DNA of 64,000 bases, taken from positions 1 through 64,000 of the IMG/VR virus record IMGVR_UViG_3300021961_000050, one strand, 5' to 3'. Source of the DNA: a virus. The position numbers and the translations under genes were made by a program. Shown here one piece after another: positions 4,230 through 19,762 of the stretch. Position 1 is the first letter of the stretch. The number at the start of each line of letters is the position of its first letter. Under the pieces are notes generated by a model. The model made no database searches. It had not been told where the DNA came from and saw only the letters and a program-made list of their open reading frames with translations.

Positions 4230-4631
4230 TTATGGTGCTAAAATAGAAACTGATACGTTTTCAACTTGGTCACCGTCAGCAATAGCTGAATAGCCACCGT
4301 TAACTGTGTCTAATGCTGTCCAATCAACTTTAGCATAGTCATCAAATTGTACACCATCATCTTGTACTAACACTGCTGTTTGATTGAAAAGTTTAACAAC
4401 AAAGTACTGACCACCATCTGAATCTAATGCTGTGATTCTCATTTCACCTTCGTTTGGTGCTGTTGTAACTAACAAGCAATCACTAGTACCTTCACTATTT
4501 GTTACATTGAAAGTTTTTGAACCTTTTTGTGAATTGATTGATGTTACTGTATCTTCAGCTGAACCACCTACTACATAAGCATTAGCATTAAAGTCTTCAG
4601 CAAGATATCTTTTATTTACTGGACGTCCCAT
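4230..4631 (-). CDS. Hypothetical protein downstream of the major capsid gene (possible head decoration protein)
   Basis: 133-aa ORF with strong AAGGAG RBS, its own ATAAATA motif and a terminator. Function is inferred from position only. Confidence 0.6.
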   Translation of the reverse strand: MGRPVNKRYLAEDFNANAYVVGGSAEDTVTSINSQKGSKTFNVTNSEGTSDCLLVTTAPNEGEMRITALDSDGGQYFVVKLFNQTAVLVQDDGVQFDDYAKVDWTALDTVNGGYSAIADGDQVENVSVSILAP

Positions 4632-4713
4632 TTGTTTTCTCCTTTTTTTAAAATGGCGTTCTAGGCCCTACGCGGTGGGTACCGCATAAGTTCATATGAA
4701 CAATAGTATTTAT
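4632..4713 (-). promoter_or_regulatory. Late promoter (ATAAATA, 4707-4713) followed by a structured 5' leader
   Basis: The leader contains the palindrome gttcatatgaac (4690-4701), the hairpin tatgcggt-accc-accgcgta (4669-4688) and ggc-ctagaac-gcc before the RBS. Confidence 0.55.
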
Positions 4714-12764: not shown

Positions 12765-12794
12765 ATAAATACTTTTACCATATACTATATTTAT
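12765..12794. promoter_or_regulatory. Opposed late promoters between the tape-measure-like and gp26-like genes
   Basis: TATAAATA on + (12765-12772, the T4 late consensus) and ATAAATA on - (~12788-12794). Confidence 0.6.
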
Positions 12795-12805
12795 TGGAAA
12801 AAAAC

Positions 12806-13657
12806 ATGGAGAATTCAAATCAATCAAATCCATTGATGTCGCACTTTAGACAGCCTGCAATCTATTTAAAATTGCCATCTGAAGGTAGATATTGGGATAA
12901 TGATGCTGTAAACTTGCCCGTTAATGGTGAAGTACCAGTCTATCCAATGACTACCAAAGACGAAATCATGCTCAGAACACCAGATGCTCTACTAAACGGT
13001 GCTGGAGTGGTCAGTGTGATACAAAGTTGTATACCTGCTATCCAGGACGCATGGAAAATGCCCAGCATTGACGTAGACTCTTGCTTAATTGCTATACGTA
13101 TTGCTACCTATGGTAATGACATGGATGTTACTACAACTTGTCCAAATTGCAAACATGAAAATGATCATACTATTGACCTTGGACAAACTATGTCGCAGAT
13201 CAACATACCAGTTTATGATGTATTTGCCATTGGCGAAGGACTAGAGGCCAAGCTCAAACCTCAAAATTATTTTGAGATCAACCGCACAAATATGATTGGC
13301 TATGAAGAACAAAGAATGATGGCTGTGTTAGATAAACAAGATCTAACTCCAGAAGATAAAGAATCAGCAATTAGAGAAATTACCAGCAAATTAGTTGATC
13401 TGAACGTGCTAAATCTTGCTAGTAGCACAGACTACATTAAAACTTCAGACGGTACTTACGTAAACAACTTTGATCATATTAAAGAGTTTTATAGTAACAC
13501 TAGTAGTAAAATAATTCGCAAGGTACAGGATCATTTGGTAAAACTTGCAGAACAATCAGGACTTCCGCCTTATCCAACCAAGTGTGTAGAATGTACTACA
13601 GAATATAGTACGGAGGTTACATTCGACTACGCAAGTTTTTTCGTCAACGGCTCTTAG
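12806..13657 (+). CDS. gp26: Baseplate hub assembly protein (T4 gp26-like)
   Basis: YLKLPSEG..Y, PMTTKDEI, LIAIRIATYG, two CxxC pairs (CPNC, CVEC) and a C-terminal FDYASFF. ATG at 12806 preferred over TTG at 12794. Confidence 0.75.
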   Translation: MENSNQSNPLMSHFRQPAIYLKLPSEGRYWDNDAVNLPVNGEVPVYPMTTKDEIMLRTPDALLNGAGVVSVIQSCIPAIQDAWKMPSIDVDSCLIAIRIATYGNDMDVTTTCPNCKHENDHTIDLGQTMSQINIPVYDVFAIGEGLEAKLKPQNYFEINRTNMIGYEEQRMMAVLDKQDLTPEDKESAIREITSKLVDLNVLNLASSTDYIKTSDGTYVNNFDHIKEFYSNTSSKIIRKVQDHLVKLAEQSGLPPYPTKCVECTTEYSTEVTFDYASFFVNGS

Positions 13658-14310: not shown

Positions 14311-14340
14311 AAGGGCATGTCATATACATGCTCTTTTTTT
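14311..14340 (+). terminator. Rho-independent terminator
   Basis: aagggcatgt-catat-acatgctctt followed by a T-run. Confidence 0.75.
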
Positions 14341-14357
14341 ATGGCATAAGTATATAC

Positions 14358-14942
14358 ATGAAAGTAATCAATTGTCATTTACCAAAAACAGCTACAATTA
14401 CTACGCAAAAAATGTTTGGCAAAGAATGTGTTGTCTATGGTAAATCAACACTCAATGGAGAAATACCGGCTGGTGATGATGTTATTAGCTTTACGATCAT
14501 TCGTGATCCGCTAGAAAGATTTTGTTCAGCTGTAAAGATGTTTGTTAAAAAAGATAAATGTAAATTAACACAGTCAGAGATAATTGATATTGCATTAGAC
14601 AACGATTTTAGTGACAGACAACTTACACAAGGTAGAGTACCTAATAAAGTTCAATATTCTATTGCATTACACACTTTGTCAATGTTTCATCCTCACATTA
14701 ATGTGTTCTATGAAAATAAAACACCTAAAGCAGATAACTTAATTGATTTTAACAATTTTGTTGCCGAATTAGAAAACTTAACTGATCGTAAGTTTAACAA
14801 AATACCACATGAAAATAAAGGTGCAGAAGTTGATATTATATTAACAGACAGTCAAATGCGATTGTTTAATCAAAAATATCATCATGATATTTTGTTCTAT
14901 GAGAAGTTTTTGGAACAATGCAATTTAGTTAAGTCGTTTTAA
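14358..14942 (+). CDS. Sulfotransferase-family protein (Sulfotransfer_2-like)
   Basis: 5'-PSB-like HLPKTATITT, 3'-PB-like FTIIRDPLERFCSA, and C-terminal PHEN..Y..D..FY. ATG at 14358 preferred over the track start at 14328, which lies in the terminator. Confidence 0.7.
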   Translation: MKVINCHLPKTATITTQKMFGKECVVYGKSTLNGEIPAGDDVISFTIIRDPLERFCSAVKMFVKKDKCKLTQSEIIDIALDNDFSDRQLTQGRVPNKVQYSIALHTLSMFHPHINVFYENKTPKADNLIDFNNFVAELENLTDRKFNKIPHENKGAEVDIILTDSQMRLFNQKYHHDILFYEKFLEQCNLVKSF

Positions 14943-14992
14943 GATGTCTAACGACATCTAACTTCTTCGTTTGCACTCGAAGTTCTTTTTTC
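14942..14992 (+). terminator. Tandem hairpins at the convergence point; the second resembles a terminator
   Basis: agatgtc-taac-gacatct (14942-14959), then aacttc...gaagtt followed by cttttttct. Confidence 0.5.
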
Positions 14993-15029
14993 TAATCTGA
15001 ACACTTTAAACTAGAATACATTTTATATT

Positions 15030-15378
15030 GACTTACTCGTATCATCCAGATATAAGTCATAATTCACCTATCCGCAGGCAAATTATGACAACGCATCATC
15101 CGAGTACTGCGTCATACTAACTAAAAGAGATTGAGATCATACTCACGGAAGCGGTCACCCGGTACTCCCTACTCTAGATTCATGTGGCGGATGCTTGATA
15201 ATCCCTAGTTAGCGAAATTATCTAAGCACGTAGGTTGCTTTTTCTCAGAGCCTACATCATTTGGGTTTTAAACCTAATTGATATGCCTTGTCGTCCCGTT
15301 CCCAAGTCTACTCTTGGGAGTTCCACACGTTGCCGTGATCACCTCATAGGACACAGAATACATCTGCATCAGCGACTG
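15030..15378 (-). ncRNA. Putative large structured non-coding RNA downstream of the GIY-YIG gene (family not recognised)
   Basis: No ORF, and GC-richer than the flanks. At least 8 predicted helices, GNRA tetraloops on the minus strand (cacg-GCAA-cgtg, cgg-GUGA-ccg) and a 7-bp loop pairing (15206-15212 with 15117-15123). Boundaries are approximate. Confidence 0.65.
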
Positions 15379-15828
15379 TTAAATGTTCTTTAAATCTTCT
15401 ACTAATATGTTTTTGACGGAGCCGTTACCTAGTCTAACGTTAACGATCCCATTGTAGTTATCTTCTCTCAACAACACATGTTCTGTGATTTGAAAATACA
15501 CTTCCATGTAGTTGGTTTCTCCACGTGTTTTACAGAGATAGATAATTTCTCTTGTGAATTTATCTTTGCCTAGTTGGTCTATGTCTTTGGTGAGCCTGTC
15601 TGACGATCCCCAGTAATCCTTCCAATCTGTTTCTACTGTTGATCTACGTTTGTTCTTTTTGCCTTTTAGAGGTGGTCTCTTCTTTACTGTCCAGAAAAAT
15701 TTACGACCTACATAGTCGTGTCCATTTTCTGTATTTGTGATTCTATATACGAACCCATAGTTGTCACCGATATCCTCAGATTCAAACTCTTGATCGTTAT
15801 AAATCCAAGGATAATCGTATGACGCCAT
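15379..15828 (-). CDS. GIY-YIG family endonuclease (single domain)
   Basis: GFVYRITNTENGHDYVGRK motif, YWGSS, FTREII...E...N pattern; 149 aa with no extra DNA-binding domain. Confidence 0.85.
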   Translation of the reverse strand: MASYDYPWIYNDQEFESEDIGDNYGFVYRITNTENGHDYVGRKFFWTVKKRPPLKGKKNKRRSTVETDWKDYWGSSDRLTKDIDQLGKDKFTREIIYLCKTRGETNYMEVYFQITEHVLLREDNYNGIVNVRLGNGSVKNILVEDLKNI

Positions 15829-15834
15829 TATTAA

Positions 15835-16014
15835 TTATAATGAGTTTTTCTTGTCTTGGATTTCAGCACGTCTTGCTTTAGCAAGTTTACCAATTTCGCC
15901 TAACGCTTTACGAGCTCTAGCGGCCGCGGCTTTAACACCTTTACCATCAAATGCTTCAGACTCTTTGGTATATGCTTCTACGTGTGCTAAGATTTGTTCA
16001 TGTAATGTTGCCAT
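15835..16014 (-). CDS. Small basic histone-like (Hc1-like) DNA-binding protein
   Basis: Not in the ORF track (59 aa): MATLHEQILAHVEAYTKESEAFDGKGVKAAAARARKALGEIGKLAKARRAEIQDKKNSL, with AAGGAG RBS. Confidence 0.7.
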   Translation of the reverse strand: MATLHEQILAHVEAYTKESEAFDGKGVKAAAARARKALGEIGKLAKARRAEIQDKKNSL

Positions 16015-16035
16015 TTTTCATTTTCTCCTTGAAAA

Positions 16036-16254
16036 TTATTTTTTATCAAATGTTGGGCTAGTGAATTCTGCTGTAGGAAAGCGCCTTACGATTTCATTAC
16101 GATATCTAGCCGCTGTTTTCCGTGATACCTGTTTCAACAGGGTATCTTTGAGTTTATCTAAACTCCAACCTTTAATTCTTGTTTTGCCGTTTTTGGTTAA
16201 GTCTGGGTTTGCTTTGCGTTTACCAGGATGTACTCTTGCTTGTGGTCCTGCCAT
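16036..16254 (-). CDS. Small, very basic hypothetical protein
   Basis: 72 aa, K/R-rich, GAGG RBS, co-oriented within the operon. Confidence 0.6.
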   Translation of the reverse strand: MAGPQARVHPGKRKANPDLTKNGKTRIKGWSLDKLKDTLLKQVSRKTAARYRNEIVRRFPTAEFTSPTFDKK

Positions 16255-16266
16255 AATTGAATTCCT

Positions 16267-17370
16267 CTAATTAGTTTCATAACCTACTGCATAAGCTTCG
16301 TCTACCAGTGAACAGTGACATTTTTGTTCACATTCAACCCAGGCACGGTCATGATCATCGATACTACTAAAAAATTTATCCCATATAGGATTGTTCAAAA
16401 CTTTTTCTAACCCATTTGATCTTATATTGAGTTTATCTTTATTTACGCTAAAAAAACTGTCAGTAAACAATATTGATTTCCTTTCAGATTTTAGCTGATC
16501 ATAAGGAAAACTAGTCCAACTACAAGGAAATAATTGCCCTTCTGCGTTGACATATAGTCCTCTATTGCCTACTAGACACAGTGGTGTTACAAATTTATTA
16601 TATTCTTCTTTAGTTTTTAAAAATTGTACCTTGTTAGTGTCCATATAGTCTGTATTATCTAAAATACGTTCAGTAAGTTTAACAGAAAACCGTTCATATC
16701 TATGTGATTTACTAATATATTGATCACTAGGTTCAAATGGATCTACATCACCACCATAGGCATCACCATAAACAGACCCAAATTTAGTACTTTTAGTAAA
16801 CTGTATACTGTCGCACCCTATCAAACCAGCCTGATGTGCCATATCATCTAAATGTGCTTCATTGAATCTAAAAATTATTGTAGCCCAATTAACAAAAGCC
16901 TTGCTTTCTTTAGCCATGATAGACATGCCCTGCATAATACTAGACCAATTACTGTTTACACGATATAAATTGTTACTAGTATCATCATATCCGTCTACAC
17001 TAAAATTAATGCTGTCACGTTCGTTACAGATTTGTGCAAATTCACGCCACCATTCTTCACTGCGATAACTGCCGTTGGTTATAGTAAACAGATGTATATT
17101 GGGATTTGTCTCTTTGATGTAACGACAGATGTCTAGATACTCTTTATTATAAATTGGATCGCCTATGTCGCCACACATTGTGATACGTTTAACCTGATTC
17201 TTAAGTAGATCCTCAGTCATAAACGATTTAAAAAATTCTAAACTAATATCGCGATTAAGTTCAATTGAATCTTTAAATTCTGTGCGAGGACATCTAGGGC
17301 ATTTTAAAGTACACTTACTGCTAATTTCAAAGTGCCAATGATAAAGTTGCCAGGGGTATGTTAAATTCAT
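16267..17370 (-). CDS. Radical SAM protein with C-terminal SPASM/Twitch-like domain
   Basis: CTLKCPRC (CxxxCxxC), GDIGDP, TNGS, FSVDG; C-terminal C...GLYVNAEGQLFPCSW...CEQKC. Confidence 0.9.
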   Translation of the reverse strand: MNLTYPWQLYHWHFEISSKCTLKCPRCPRTEFKDSIELNRDISLEFFKSFMTEDLLKNQVKRITMCGDIGDPIYNKEYLDICRYIKETNPNIHLFTITNGSYRSEEWWREFAQICNERDSINFSVDGYDDTSNNLYRVNSNWSSIMQGMSIMAKESKAFVNWATIIFRFNEAHLDDMAHQAGLIGCDSIQFTKSTKFGSVYGDAYGGDVDPFEPSDQYISKSHRYERFSVKLTERILDNTDYMDTNKVQFLKTKEEYNKFVTPLCLVGNRGLYVNAEGQLFPCSWTSFPYDQLKSERKSILFTDSFFSVNKDKLNIRSNGLEKVLNNPIWDKFFSSIDDHDRAWVECEQKCHCSLVDEAYAVGYETN

Positions 17371-17996
17371 TTTGATACAGTTAACCTTTTGTACACATGT
17401 TCTCTGTCAGACAGGATTAAATCTAAACTAGGTATTAGATCATCAGTGATTAGATGCGGCATAGTATTGTATAAAATATCTTTTTCCTCCACAGGACCAT
17501 TACCTCTGTTGAAATGAAAGTTAGTTTTAGTTAATCCTGGATGCAACTGACAGATACCAATTTTTGTACTGACTAGTTCTCTAGATAGACTATCTAAGAA
17601 TGATTCAAGTGCAACCTTACTGGTACCATAGGCTACAAAATTAGGCCATACATAGTCAACAATAGTAGATCCAACAACAACAATCTTAGACCAATCTTTA
17701 AAATATCTTTGTTGTACGTACTTATGTACTAATCGCATATTGGCTAAAAGATTTACAGTAACAGTGTTGATGAAATCCTCTTCTTTTAATTTGATAAAAG
17801 GTTGACGCCCATTGGTATCTACACCAGCACAGAGTATGATGGCATCATAACTGGCTAAATTAACAGTGCTAATGTCAAAATTTGATAGATCTAGTTCATT
17901 ACGTAAAGGTGCCCAAAGCTCATGCCCTTGTGCCTCTAGATGTTGTTTAAAACACTGTCCTATACCAGAACTTCCACCTGTTAAGAATATTTTCAT
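17367..17996 (-). CDS. Short-chain dehydrogenase/reductase (SDR)
   Basis: TGGSSGIG Rossmann motif, CAG, YGTSK (YxxxK) and HPGLTKT; ATGA overlaps with both neighbours. Confidence 0.9.
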   Translation of the reverse strand: MKIFLTGGSSGIGQCFKQHLEAQGHELWAPLRNELDLSNFDISTVNLASYDAIILCAGVDTNGRQPFIKLKEEDFINTVTVNLLANMRLVHKYVQQRYFKDWSKIVVVGSTIVDYVWPNFVAYGTSKVALESFLDSLSRELVSTKIGICQLHPGLTKTNFHFNRGNGPVEEKDILYNTMPHLITDDLIPSLDLILSDREHVYKRLTVSK

Positions 17997-19762
17997 GACA
18001 TTTCCACATCAGTGTCATACATGGTAAAGCCATTTTCTTTAACCACAGTTAGTATATTGTTAACACGCCCTGCTAGTTCGTCTCTGTGCGACACTAACCA
18101 AATTGACTTGTTATGTTCACGAGCCATTTTCTTAAGTATAGCCATGGCACCTTCAACACCACTAGCGTCCATACCTGAATCAACTAACTCATCAATGAAC
18201 AACAAGTTGATTGGTTGATACAAACTTTCCCATACATCACGGAATGCCCACGATAACGATAATATCAATCTATTACGCTCACCCCTGGACAAGTTATCAA
18301 AGTCTAAATCTCTACCTAGTTCAGTGATCTCTACGGTTAGGTCATTTAAGAAAGTAACTGTATGTGGCAAACCTATCCTGTCAAGATACTGACCTAGGCG
18401 AGCATTTAGATAACTTAGATTCTGATCAATGATACGTTTTCTAACAAAACTATCTTTATTGGTTAGAAGTTTATATAAGAAGTCCTGATGTTCCTGTACA
18501 CGTTTGTGTTCATTGATAGGACCATAGTCCACTTCTTCTTCACTCTGTTGTGACATTTCCTCTATCTGTTCTGTGTAAGGATCTTCTTCTTGTTCTTTGG
18601 CTTTCAATTGTAGTTCCAAACTGCCAAGACTTGATCTATGATGAATAGCATCTTCTTCATTGGGGTAAAATGTTTTGGGCTTATCACCTGGAAGACCTAG
18701 TTCTTTTTCTGCTTCACACAATTCTTTATGTGTATTAAAGTGTCGCTCATGTTCTTGCTCAGCGTCTGCCAGACTGCCTTCTTTTTGTGTTAGTAATTCT
18801 TCATGTTTATCATCATGTACATCCTGGCCACAACTATGACACTTATGTTCACGTAGCAGTTCCAGATCTTCTTTGAGTTTTTCTATTGCTGACTCTTCAC
18901 GTTTATAATCTTTTTCTGCTTGGCGTATGGCCTTTTGCACTTCTTCTATTTGTCTAACAGTTTCGTTATATGCTTTTAAATCTTTGTGCTGTTGAATTTC
19001 ATGATCAATATCAATCTTTTGTAGTTCTTCTAGAGCAATCTTTAATTCATCAATGTCATCTTGATGTTTCTTTTGCCACAGAGTTTGTCTACGTTTGATA
19101 GATTCAACCTGTTCTTTCATTTTGCTGTTAGAATCTTGCACTGCTTTGATCTTATATTCTTCTTCTTTAATAGCATCACGTGTGACTTTTTGTTGTTCTT
19201 TAAGGGCTTCAGCCTTTTCACTTAACACAGTGATACCTAACAGTTGTTCAATGATAGCACGTTGATCATTAGGTTTAAGTGCTAAGAATGGTTCTGTATA
19301 GGTATTCAAAGCCACAACATGTTTGAACATGGTGTGACTCATGTTCAACATGCGTTCTATTTCTTTTTGAGTTTCACGGCTGTCACCTTGAGCATTGTCC
19401 TCAGCTTCTTGTTCCTCACCGCCAATGTAAAATTTTAGTATGTTGGGTTTGCGTCCACGTTCAATCTTATAGTCAATGCCATTCCATTCAAAGTCCACTG
19501 TGACCAGCATGGCCTTGGCATTGGTCTTATTAACTAAATTATCTTTACGAATATTGGTTAGTGCTTCACCATATAAAGCATAACTAAGGGCATTAATGAT
19601 AGTGGTCTTACCTGTGCCATTACGGGCGCCACTATCATCGCCTCCAAGATCAATATTTTTACCCAACACTAGAGTTAGATCTTTGCGATCAAAGTTTACT
19701 GCTTGTGTTGAATTACCAACACTCATAAAGTTTTTAACTGTTAAACTTTTTAATTTGAACAT
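17993..19762 (-). CDS. gp46: Recombination endonuclease ATPase subunit (gp46, Rad50/SbcC-like)
   Basis: KNFMSVGN, Walker A NGTGKTT, coiled coil with CHSC zinc hook, LSRGE signature, LLFIDE Walker B and LVSH. Confidence 0.95.
   Translation of the reverse strand: MFKLKSLTVKNFMSVGNSTQAVNFDRKDLTLVLGKNIDLGGDDSGARNGTGKTTIINALSYALYGEALTNIRKDNLVNKTNAKAMLVTVDFEWNGIDYKIERGRKPNILKFYIGGEEQEAEDNAQGDSRETQKEIERMLNMSHTMFKHVVALNTYTEPFLALKPNDQRAIIEQLLGITVLSEKAEALKEQQKVTRDAIKEEEYKIKAVQDSNSKMKEQVESIKRRQTLWQKKHQDDIDELKIALEELQKIDIDHEIQQHKDLKAYNETVRQIEEVQKAIRQAEKDYKREESAIEKLKEDLELLREHKCHSCGQDVHDDKHEELLTQKEGSLADAEQEHERHFNTHKELCEAEKELGLPGDKPKTFYPNEEDAIHHRSSLGSLELQLKAKEQEEDPYTEQIEEMSQQSEEEVDYGPINEHKRVQEHQDFLYKLLTNKDSFVRKRIIDQNLSYLNARLGQYLDRIGLPHTVTFLNDLTVEITELGRDLDFDNLSRGERNRLILSLSWAFRDVWESLYQPINLLFIDELVDSGMDASGVEGAMAILKKMAREHNKSIWLVSHRDELAGRVNNILTVVKENGFTMYDTDVEMS

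What the first reader, a model, noticed from the sequence alone, without database searches (positions are those of the whole stretch)
15030..15828. Large ornate non-coding RNA encoded immediately 3' of a minimal GIY-YIG nuclease
Seen: a 436-bp ORF-free gap (14943-15378) in an otherwise gene-packed genome, GC-richer than its flanks and dense with helices. These include gtcataatt/aattatgac (15056-64/15081-89), acgca/tgcgt (15091-95/15108-12), tgag/ctca (15132-45), ggaagcgg...ctccc closed by a GUGA loop (~15147-69), tgcttgataat/attatctaagca (15192-15228), gtagg/cctac (15230-55), ttgggtt/aacctaa (15261-77), tcccaag/cttggga (15300-19) and cacg-GCAA-cgtg (15326-37). The loop of the 15192-15228 stem (tagttag, 15206-12) is complementary to ctaacta (15117-23), predicting a pseudoknot. 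A repeated YGGATGAT motif flanks the 3' stem. GNRA loops put the RNA on the minus strand, starting right after the nuclease stop codon. Known: large structured RNAs occur in phage and environmental DNA (GOLLD, ROOL), and some compact nucleases use an adjacent RNA (IscB with HEARO/omegaRNA, TnpB with reRNA). Inference: this is a functional RNA, possibly forming an RNP with the single-domain GIY-YIG protein or the two small basic proteins upstream. I cannot match it to tRNA, tmRNA, RNase P or group I/II intron cores.
Basis: partly seen in the sequence, partly recalled or inferred. Interest (0 to 1): 0.88.

Follow-up and report, generated by a model that had tools for sequence, protein, structure and literature searches.

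The report
Knotted phage RNA with twin words
The gene-free stretch behind a small nuclease gene of this uncultured T4-like aquatic phage encodes a real, knotted non-coding RNA shared by many related phages; it carries the same fast-changing seven-letter word twice, and its job and its partner are still unknown.

Summary
Window 14943-15378 has no credible ORF. It encodes, on the minus strand, a structured RNA with a ~340-nt conserved core (15040-15378) and a ~95-nt tail.

On 45 relatives, 96.9% of 3486 pair cells are standard pairs, against 33-44% when partners are slid. 50 of 78 pairs show changes on both sides.

I found 129 distinct core sequences on viral contigs. All lie between gp46 and the convergent gp51/gp26 genes. 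None turned up in prokaryote genomes or cultured-phage records. No Rfam family matches this window.

Two copies of one 7-9-nt word flank hairpin H12. They differ between phages but were identical within 171 of 172 loci.

A small nuclease gene lies upstream in 114 of 114 testable cases (GIY-YIG 104, PD-(D/E)XK 10). Unrelated genes can sit between nuclease and RNA. GIY-YIG relatives occur without the RNA, and no neighbouring protein covaries with the word. The guide or RNP idea is therefore unsupported.

This scan had already found the same family on seven other genomes, and I reached the same reading. Function unknown. My best guess is twin docking sites for one unidentified partner.

The parts
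15040..15378 (-). Conserved structured core of the RNA: 13 helices plus one pseudoknot. It begins at the stop codon of the upstream ORF.
   Evidence: Homologous at 70-90% identity in 40 of 68 GIY-YIG loci. nhmmer finds 204 loci and 129 distinct cores. Covariation.
15292..15366 (-). 5' domain. H1 is 15354-56 / 15364-66. H2 (15292-98 / 15345-53) encloses H3 (15326-30 / 15335-37, GCAA loop) and H4 (15301-06 / 15313-18). It also holds conserved single-stranded GAGGNGAU and UGGAAC.
   Evidence: H2 has 6 of 7 pairs with changes on both sides, H3 has 5 of 5, H4 has 5 of 6. This domain is replaced or diverged in PD-(D/E)XK-linked relatives. In L207 a Polynucleobacter-1 (RF01718) domain sits in its place.
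15230..15274 (-). H5 (15263-65 / 15272-74) and H6 (15230-37 / 15246-55), joined by the invariant AAAUGAU.
   Evidence: H6 has 5 of 5 pairs with compensatory change and is 98.2% paired.
15192..15228 (-). H7 hairpin. Its loop CUAACUA (15206-15212) forms the pseudoknot with UAGUUAG (15117-15123).
   Evidence: pseudoknot helix 239-245/341-348 is 99.4% paired, with 5 of 7 pairs changed on both sides (for example AACUA/UAGUU to AAUUA/UAAUU in 5 sequences).
15126..15175 (-). Three-way junction. H10 (15126-29 / 15172-75) encloses the near-invariant H8 (15147-54 / 15159-69, GUGA loop) and H9 (15132-35 / 15142-45).
   Evidence: The 29-nt H8 block served as the search pattern. H10 is 100% paired with 2 of 4 pairs compensatory; H9 has 2 of 4.
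15095..15101 (-). Word copy 1 (GGAUGAU in this phage), in the apical part of the small, weakly fixed hairpin H11.
   Evidence: H11 stem is 74% paired.
15057..15088 (-). H12, a conserved 13-bp hairpin between the two word copies.
   Evidence: 98.5% paired, 5 of 13 pairs compensatory, many G-U pairs.
15041..15047 (-). Word copy 2 (GGAUGAU), 54 nt after copy 1.
   Evidence: Flanking stem H13 is only 57% paired in one register.
14943..15039 (-). Tail: an A/U-rich, weakly conserved linker and two conserved hairpins. 14965-14982 is a T-run terminator for the convergent + strand gene. 14943-14958 (GAUGUC..GACAUC) is a possible weak terminator of the RNA itself.
   Evidence: Alignment. Terminator scan (+ strand 14965-14982). 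The true 3' end was not measured.
15379..15828 (-). Neighbouring gene: 149-aa GIY-YIG nuclease with the catalytic domain only.
   Evidence: Pfam SegE_GIY-YIG, E = 2.1e-38, residues 8-124. PHROG 447.

Best explanation
This is a gene for a large structured non-coding RNA of an uncatalogued family. The family is fixed at the end of the gp47/gp46 recombination-nuclease operon of a broad clade of uncultured T4-like aquatic phages.

Shown:
- the fold, including the pseudoknot;
- the strand;
- the conservation and the fixed position;
- that two copies of one 7-9-nt word flank hairpin H12 and stay identical while the word changes between phages.

Inferred:
- The RNA is made as the 3'-terminal part of the operon transcript, because it starts at the stop codon of whichever ORF precedes it and its first hairpin covaries. 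It may then be trimmed to a stable species.
- The conserved pseudoknotted core is a scaffold.
- The two words are two equivalent docking sites for one trans-acting partner. That partner could be two copies of a nucleic-acid sequence, a dimeric sequence-reading protein, or a sequence-specific RNase for which the RNA is a decoy.
- Both sites must therefore follow the same diversifying specificity.

The neighbouring nuclease is a habitual neighbour, not a demonstrated partner.
For: Fold: one search gives 96.9% paired against 33-44% slid, 50 of 78 pairs compensatory, and 0 of 500 shuffles reaching any measure. RNAalifold independently predicted 63 pairs, 37 of them compensatory.

Family: 96 stretches for the strict pattern and at least 120 for the loose one on viral contigs. 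That gives 204 loci and 129 distinct cores by nhmmer, plus 11 real among 119 metagenome stretches.

Position: convergent gp26-like gene downstream in 63 of 63 loci with long flanks, and gp46 upstream in 61 of 63.

Start: the conserved sequence begins at the stop codon behind GIY-YIG, SGNH-like, radical SAM or PD-(D/E)XK ORFs alike. H1 has one compensatory pair.

Twin words:
- Mutual information is 0.98-1.0 between equivalent positions of the two copies. No third column reaches 0.9 except an indel column (0.91) and a neighbouring column (0.98) within the H13 hairpin that holds copy 2.
- 171 of 172 loci have identical copies, and all 8 combinations of R-GAU-R-A-W occur.
- Divergent relatives carry other words, again twice: AGAUCAA, GACGAA, GUAAGAUA, AUGUAA, UGCGAAUAG, GGAAAAAGU.
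- On a tree of 106 RNAs built with the words masked, the word changes at least 32 times.

RNA libraries: contigs of 4 metatranscriptome runs from 4 studies lie on the RNA, the nuclease gene and the Hc1-like gene at 90% likeness or more.
Against: - No partner was found. There is no complementary sequence inside the RNA, none at a consistent place within 3 kb, and none in excess in 1.28 Mb of flanks (own-word complement 109, other words 117). Nothing stands out in the 88-kb genome.
- No neighbouring protein covaries with the word.
- The words are only about 55 nt apart. Recombination between phages can carry both together, so the 32 changes on the tree are an upper reading. The firm minimum is one double change per distinct word, about 15 words.
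- The small stems that would present the words as loops are poorly supported (74% and 57% paired).
- Transcription is not proven. The runs are contigs, give no strand or ends, and DNA can be present in RNA libraries.
- A purely cis role as a 3' UTR is not excluded.
Confidence: 0.45

Rival explanations
1. The RNA is the cofactor or guide of the upstream small nuclease (GIY-YIG or PD-(D/E)XK, both lacking a DNA-binding domain). The twin words would aim two nuclease subunits at a nucleic-acid target.
For: A nuclease gene lies upstream on the same strand in 114 of 114 distinct RNAs with enough upstream sequence, and in 10 of 10 metagenome cases. Two unrelated nuclease folds occupy the same slot. 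The GIY-YIG protein is the catalytic domain only. The words are short, variable and guide-like.
Against: The whole gene order is equally fixed, so neighbourhood carries little weight. In about 20 distinct cases, 700-1900 nt of unrelated genes separate the two. GIY-YIG relatives in nrd operons and in cultured phages lack the RNA. The same words occur with both nuclease types. No GIY-YIG column tracks the word, with best normalised MI of 0.38. No target complementary to the word was found. To my knowledge, which is recall and not a search, no RNA-guided GIY-YIG or PD-(D/E)XK enzyme is known.
Confidence: 0.12
2. It is a cis-acting 3' untranslated element. It would protect the operon mRNA from 3' exonucleases and insulate the early/middle operon from the convergent late baseplate genes. 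The words would have no reader.
For: It is always the last element before convergent genes (63 of 63). It starts at the stop codon. Terminator-like hairpins end it.
Against: A 340-nt pseudoknotted, near-invariant core is far more than a terminator needs. A cis stabiliser gives no reason for two words to stay identical through about 15 or more word changes.
Confidence: 0.15
3. The RNA is processed at the two words. A sequence-specific RNase or the RNA itself would cut both copies and release, or circularise, the ~55-nt H12 unit. Alternatively the RNA is a decoy substrate that soaks up such an RNase. This is loosely like one unit of a type III antitoxin repeat (recalled comparison).
For: Two identical sites bound one hairpin unit at a spacing of 51-62 nt. 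A changing RNase specificity would drive both copies together.
Against: No joint or loose end at the words appears in the contigs laid, though contigs are poor evidence here. No ToxN-like gene is nearby. Only 7-12 nt are repeated, not the whole unit. No Rfam ribozyme matches.
Confidence: 0.12
4. The twin words act at the DNA level. Direct repeats flanking a palindrome would serve as crossover sites of a recombinase, as a replication or packaging signal, or as the target-site duplication of a tiny mobile hairpin. Identity of crossover cores is needed for strand exchange (recalled from lox/FRT spacers).
For: Direct repeats of 7-9 bp flank an inverted repeat. Identity with free sequence is what crossover cores show. 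Nuclease and recombination genes are next door.
Against: H12 keeps many G-U pairs on the minus strand only (383/414 UG in 35, 384/413 GU in 25, 391/406 GU in 38 of 45). This fits RNA, not a DNA cruciform. No recombinase gene is present. No relative lacks H12 with a single word left, as excision would give. A one-off duplication would decay rather than co-vary.
Confidence: 0.08

Closest known systems
Polynucleobacter-1 RNA motif (Rfam RF01718; Weinberg et al. 2010, PMC2864571. I saw only its row in the paper's table.)
   Same: An orphan structured RNA from Burkholderiales and freshwater/estuary sequence. In one relative (L207) a full-length RF01718 match (38.7 bits, cut-off 37) lies directly 5' of a segment homologous to the core of this RNA (nhmmer 54 bits). 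It sits behind the same GIY-YIG gene, where this window has its own 5' domain.
   Different: The model does not match this window or its genome at E <= 10. It matched none of 19 further loci at gathering score and none of 17 at E <= 5, the own locus included. RF01718 covers 141 nt and none of the pseudoknot core, H12 or the twin words.
Large orphan 'ornate' RNAs of bacteria and phages (GOLLD, ROOL, OLE, raiA, HEARO; names recalled. Kretsch et al. 2025, PMC12286853, seen as a search listing and abstract only.)
   Same: Several hundred nucleotides, many helices and pseudoknots, strong covariation, found by comparative genomics, partly phage-borne, function unknown.
   Different: No Rfam model of these families matches. 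This RNA is confined to one syntenic slot of T4-like phages. It has the duplicated variable word, which I do not know from those families.
Paired recognition sites that co-vary with one reader: boxB of nutL/nutR in lambdoid phages with N protein, leader/body TRS cores of nidoviruses, take-off/landing codons of T4 gene 60 (all recalled, none tested here)
   Same: Two copies of a short sequence must stay identical while differing between relatives, because one reader or one nascent chain meets both.
   Different: No N-like reader was identified. No ORF crosses the region, so ribosome hopping does not apply. No RNA-dependent polymerase is involved.
Guide RNAs of compact nucleases (omega RNA of IscB/HEARO, reRNA of TnpB)
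   Same: A large structured RNA next to a small nuclease gene, with a short variable segment.
   Different: The neighbours are GIY-YIG or PD-(D/E)XK, not RuvC/HNH enzymes. The variable segment is internal and duplicated, not a terminal guide. There are no transposon ends, and HEARO does not match.

Membership tests
Polynucleobacter-1 (RF01718) | Match to the Rfam covariance model at or above its gathering score (37 bits) | tested here: not met
   No match in the window at gathering score, at E <= 10 over 14800-15900, in the 88-kb genome at E <= 10, or in the own locus L001 at E <= 5. Among relatives, 1 of 14 (L207), 0 of 19 and 0 of 17 matched.
Polynucleobacter-1 (RF01718) | Homology of the 5' domain by position and architecture | tested here: inconclusive
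   In L207 the RF01718 match (2580-2729) lies where this RNA has H1-H4, directly before the shared core (2757-2903). By eye both share UGGAA and ACU elements, but the helices nest differently. I made no alignment that proves homology.
Group I intron carrying a homing endonuclease | Match to group I models, a P3-P7 core, and flanking exons of a split gene | tested here: not met
   No Rfam intron match. Only 6 nt lie between the Hc1-like stop and the nuclease start. The RNA is followed by terminators and a convergent gene, so there is no 3' exon.
omega RNA / HEARO / reRNA guide RNAs | Adjacent IscB/TnpB-type nuclease, a variable guide at one end, and a model match | tested here: not met
   Neighbours are GIY-YIG or PDDEXK_15. 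The variable part is internal and duplicated. There is no HEARO match.
tRNA, tmRNA, RNase P, other housekeeping RNAs | ARAGORN or Rfam match | tested here: not met
   ARAGORN finds 0 genes in the window and 0 in the 88-kb genome. Rfam finds none.
Type III antitoxin RNA (ToxI-like) | Tandem repeats of a whole 34-45-nt unit next to a ToxN-type RNase gene | tested here: not met
   Only 7-12 nt are repeated, once. The neighbours give no such Pfam or PHROG hit. The family's definition is recalled.
3'-UTR-borne RNA of an operon | Lies between the last stop codon and the terminator, co-transcribed, with a defined processed 5' end | tested here: inconclusive
   The position fits. Contigs from RNA libraries cover the RNA and the upstream genes. 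Ends and strand could not be read from contigs.

The most novel reading that the evidence does not exclude
The twin words are a programmable specificity code. Each phage lineage sets one 7-9-nt word, displayed twice on a rigid pseudoknotted scaffold, which is read by base pairing or by a dimeric reader. The purpose could be to aim the adjacent recombination nuclease, or to mark self against non-self among co-infecting phages or against a host defence. That would be a new kind of RNA-specified recognition system in T4-like phages.
Probability: 0.15. Interest if true: 0.92.

Novelty: new variant of a known kind. Interest (0 to 1): 0.78.

Why it matters
T4-like phages are among the best-studied viruses. 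Even so, a ~430-nt RNA gene sits at one fixed place in a large aquatic branch of them without a name, a model or a function.

Its core is as well supported by covariation as established RNA families. The duplicated, fast-changing word gives a concrete handle. Change one copy, both copies, or swap words between phages, and see what is lost. Whatever reads the word must exist twice or be bivalent, which narrows the search.

If not, it is still a new large RNA family worth a curated model, and it shows that Rfam's Polynucleobacter-1 is probably one domain of a longer RNA.

Tried and rejected
Coding region or decayed C-terminal domain of the nuclease. Rejected: no conserved ORF, indels of any length, and a substitution pattern that follows base pairs.

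Group I intron with the nuclease as its homing gene. Rejected (see membership test).

Ribosome hopping as in T4 gene 60 (recalled). The words often read codon plus stop (GGA UGA, AGA UAA) and are 51-62 nt apart. But no ORF enters the region, a stop would follow the landing site, and several words hold no stop (AGAUCAA, GGAAAAAGU).

tRNA anticodon-loop pairing. The complement of the words puts a pyrimidine at position 37, by my own reasoning. No tRNA genes are in the genome.

CsrA-type GGA sites (recalled). Half of the words read AGA.

Partner inside the RNA. None found by mutual information or by a wobble-tolerant complement search in 12 diverse members.

Partner nearby. A peak of complements about 600 nt upstream was the GIY-YIG codons TTT ATC TAC in one word class only, so it is coincidence. 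There was no excess in 1.28 Mb of flanks. The own genome has 15 other ATCATCC sites against about 11 expected.

RNAalifold's long-range helix 278-282/424-428. It competes with H10, which has compensatory support. I left it out.

sigma-70-like site at 15382-15355 as the RNA's own promoter. It is not conserved, and it would remove H1, which covaries.

Polynucleobacter-1 membership. Not met for this window (see membership test).

Genome collection of 185,579 species. 21 pattern matches, 0 real by nhmmer, best E = 0.065. Only the pattern was scanned, so divergent copies could be missed.

Cultured phages. blastn of the 436 nt found nothing. Of the 462 records with a GIY-YIG relative, I looked at 3 loci, and none has the RNA.

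Neighbour gene 14328-14942. No relatives found by pattern.

Read laying. The bins 14500-14865 and 16025-16207 had no contig in any of the 4 runs, and 16269-16300 none either; 14866-14926 and 16208-16268 each held a trace in one run. This is no evidence of absence.

In one search my script listed 7 RNAs as 'no nuclease found'. All 7 are cut by the contig end, so the slice examined was meaningless. I count them as untestable, along with 8 that have too little upstream sequence.

Rows dropped. A1 holds the window plus 44 representatives (under 96% identity) of 59 unique sequences, out of 113 full-length loci then in hand. The tree holds 106 of 118 unique RNAs; the other 12 have words outside the R-GAU-R-A-W pattern.

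The latter lists 8,495 unnamed structured-RNA candidates of 29-151 nt from IMG/VR, and pieces of this RNA may be among them. Its main text holds no 'GIY-YIG', 'T4-like' or 'nuclease'.

Searches for prior description were. Nothing on this RNA was found.
Full report
**What is there.** The window is the first 64 kb of an 88,224-nt IMG/VR virus record that CheckV rates 25% complete. It is a T4-like phage. A gp46-like Rad50 homologue lies at 17993-19762 (-), and a T4 baseplate-hub protein at 12794-13657 (+, Pfam T4_baseplate).

The finding covers a 149-aa ORF at 15379-15828 (-). It is a GIY-YIG catalytic domain and nothing else (SegE_GIY-YIG, E = 2.1e-38, residues 8-124). Behind it lies the 436-nt gap 14943-15378. 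The gap sits between convergent genes and holds only ORFs of 30, 52 and 31 aa.

**Is the structure more than chance?** Folding the single sequence says little: z = -2.6 on either strand. Relatives decide the matter.
- The nuclease protein retrieved 68 viral loci. In 40 of them blastn finds the gap sequence at 70-90% identity.
- A 29-nt near-invariant block gave 96 stretches on viral contigs.
- With an nhmmer profile of the core I count 204 loci and 129 distinct core sequences.
- An alignment of the window plus 44 representatives (A1) was scored against a structure of 15 helices. 96.9% of 3486 cells pair, against 33.5-43.5% when partners are slid. 50 of 78 pairs change on both sides, 441 cells are compensatory, and 0 of 500 shuffles reach any measure.
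Its pseudoknot (15206-12 with 15117-23) is 99.4% paired, with 5 of 7 pairs compensatory.
- Invariant G-U pairs place the RNA on the minus strand.

**Extent.** Conservation starts at the stop codon of the preceding ORF, whatever that ORF is. The first hairpin has a compensatory pair. I therefore infer read-through from the operon rather than a separate promoter. The sigma-70-like site at 15382-15355 is not conserved.

The well-conserved core ends after the second word at about 15040. An A/U-rich tail follows, with two conserved hairpins. One of these (14965-14982) is a T-run terminator for the convergent + strand gene. The real ends were not measured.

**Known families.** Rfam 15 gives nothing in the gap at gathering score. 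At E <= 10 it gives only three chance snoRNA hits. ARAGORN finds nothing.

Notes from earlier agents of this scan describe the same RNA on seven other genomes, and most call it a divergent relative of Polynucleobacter-1 (RF01718). I tested that:
- The model matches one relative, L207, at 38.7 bits (cut-off 37).
- That match lies directly 5' of the segment homologous to this core and behind the same nuclease gene.
- It matches neither this window or genome nor 36 further loci.

RF01718 therefore looks like the 5' domain of a related, longer RNA. This window's RNA fails the membership test.

The 2010 paper gives only a table row for the motif, and no later paper in the library names it. A 2023 catalogue of IMG/VR structured-RNA candidates of 29-151 nt may hold fragments of this RNA, but I could not see its supplements.

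**Where it occurs.**
- Of the 63 loci with long flanks, all 63 have a convergent gp26-like gene downstream and 61 have gp46 upstream.
- No syntenic locus with enough sequence lacks the RNA.
- The pattern found nothing real in one genome each of 185,579 prokaryote species: 0 of 21 matches.
- blastn found nothing in 50,697 phage records.
- Metagenome contigs added 11 real copies out of 119 matches.
- Contigs of four metatranscriptome runs (three salt-marsh runs from 2018, one marine run from 2022; four studies) lie on the RNA, the nuclease gene and the Hc1-like gene. This is compatible with expression but shows no strand or ends, and DNA carry-over is possible.

**The nuclease question.** Among the 129 distinct RNAs, 114 have enough upstream sequence. 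All 114 have a small nuclease gene upstream on the same strand. It is GIY-YIG in 104 and a 173-aa PDDEXK_15 protein in 10. The other 15 are cut by contig ends. Ten of ten metagenome cases agree.

That is a faithful neighbourhood, and two unrelated folds in one slot is suggestive. Against a functional pair:
- The whole neighbourhood is just as fixed.
- One or two unrelated genes are inserted between nuclease and RNA in about 20 distinct cases.
- GIY-YIG relatives at 60-64% identity sit in nrdA/nrdB operons without the RNA.
- The relatives in cultured phages (Melnitz, P-SSM4, phiM19; 462 records, all under 60% identity) have no RNA in the three loci I read.
- No residue column of GIY-YIG, Hc1-like, the basic protein, gp46 or the radical SAM enzyme tracks the variable word.

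A small resolvase-type nuclease at the end of a recombination operon needs no RNA to explain it. That last point is my inference.

**The twin words.** Two copies of a 7-9-nt word lie 51-62 nt apart on either side of the conserved hairpin H12.
- In A1 the three variable positions of R-GAU-R-A-W have mutual information 0.99, 0.98 and 1.0 with the same positions of the other copy. No third column comes close, apart from an indel column (0.91) and a neighbouring column (0.98) of the H13 hairpin that holds copy 2.
- Over 172 loci with this word type, 171 have identical copies. One differs by one letter. All eight combinations occur.
- More distant relatives carry quite different words, again twice: AGAUCAA, GACGAA, GUAAGAUA, AUGUAA, UGCGAAUAG, GGAAAAAGU, and by eye AUCAGAA.
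- On a tree of 106 RNAs built with the words masked, the word changes at least 32 times.
- Because the copies are close, recombination can move both together. The safe minimum is therefore one concerted double change per distinct word, about 15.
- The constant letters before the copies differ (ACUC against AUCU), so gene conversion of a longer tract is unlikely (my inference).
- The small stems around the words are poorly fixed (74% and 57% paired). 'Loop' is thus a tentative description.

**What could read the words?** I found no complementary partner:
- none inside the RNA;
- none at a constant place nearby;
- none in excess in 1.28 Mb of flanks;
- none in the 88-kb genome.

Identity rather than complementarity between two sites means that one reader meets both. 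Recalled precedents are boxB in nutL/nutR with N protein, leader and body TRS of nidoviruses, crossover cores of recombinase sites, and the take-off and landing codons of T4 gene 60. The last three need an RNA-copying polymerase, a recombinase or an ORF, none of which is present here. The G-U pairs of H12 speak for RNA rather than DNA.

I therefore favour two equivalent docking sites for one trans-acting partner: a nucleic acid present twice, a dimeric protein, or a sequence-specific RNase for which the RNA is a decoy or substrate. I hold this at modest confidence.

**Verdict.** This is a real, widespread, uncatalogued large phage RNA with a pseudoknotted core and a concertedly evolving duplicated word.
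- Its RNP idea is neither shown nor excluded, and on present evidence it is the weaker reading.
- The scan had found this family before on other DNA. My independent analysis agrees with those notes on the twin words and on the nuclease.
- It narrows the Polynucleobacter-1 claim to a link through one chimeric relative.

Noticed in passing
window 4629-4700 (-): Full-length match to the Rfam motif freshwater-2 (RF02980): 60.9 bits against a cut-off of 49.9. It is the only Rfam match in the 64-kb window.
   Followed up: no
L207:2580-2903 (IMGVR_UViG_3300028400_000045): A full Polynucleobacter-1 (RF01718) match is directly followed by the conserved core of the present RNA, behind a GIY-YIG gene. 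The 141-nt Rfam motif is therefore probably one domain of a longer RNA. The 3' part of L207 differs, and I saw no twin words there.
   Followed up: partly
L015:3456-4265, L084, L120, L127, L164 and about 15 more loci: The junction between the nuclease stop codon and the RNA start is an insertion hot spot. It can hold a 265-271-aa protein with an N-terminal GCSF/GxSxxxG motif (SGNH-like by eye; no Pfam or PHROG hit), radical SAM proteins of 388 and 460 aa, or a 237-aa second GIY-YIG homing-type protein.
   Followed up: partly
phage records P-SSM4, P-TIM68, phiM7/phiM12/phiM19 and many cyanophages: The small GIY-YIG protein family (PHROG 447) is annotated 'NAD synthetase' in many deposited genomes. 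Pfam places it in SegE_GIY-YIG, so the deposited name looks wrong.
   Followed up: no
window 14943-14958, and the same place in most relatives: The hairpin GATGTC-N3-4-GACATC abuts the stop codon of the convergent gene. It is conserved across loci even where that gene differs. Its role is unexplained; it may be a terminator for the RNA strand.
   Followed up: no
tails of L190, L192, L215, L231, L259, L274: Several divergent lineages carry a short CGCTTCGCT-like motif in the otherwise unconserved tail after word copy 2.
   Followed up: no
window 15340-15348 (-), RNA 5' domain: A conserved single-stranded GAGGNGAU. In this phage it is GAGGUGAUC, by my recollection a 9-nt match to the complement of the 16S rRNA 3' end. 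It could be a ribosome- or S1-binding site or a RegB-type GGAG site. This is pure speculation.
   Followed up: no
L270:3434-3541 and L211:745-852: A weak sub-threshold match to RT-17 RNA (RF03020): 24.6 bits against a cut-off of 40.4, E = 1.8. The two loci give the same score. It is probably chance.
   Followed up: no
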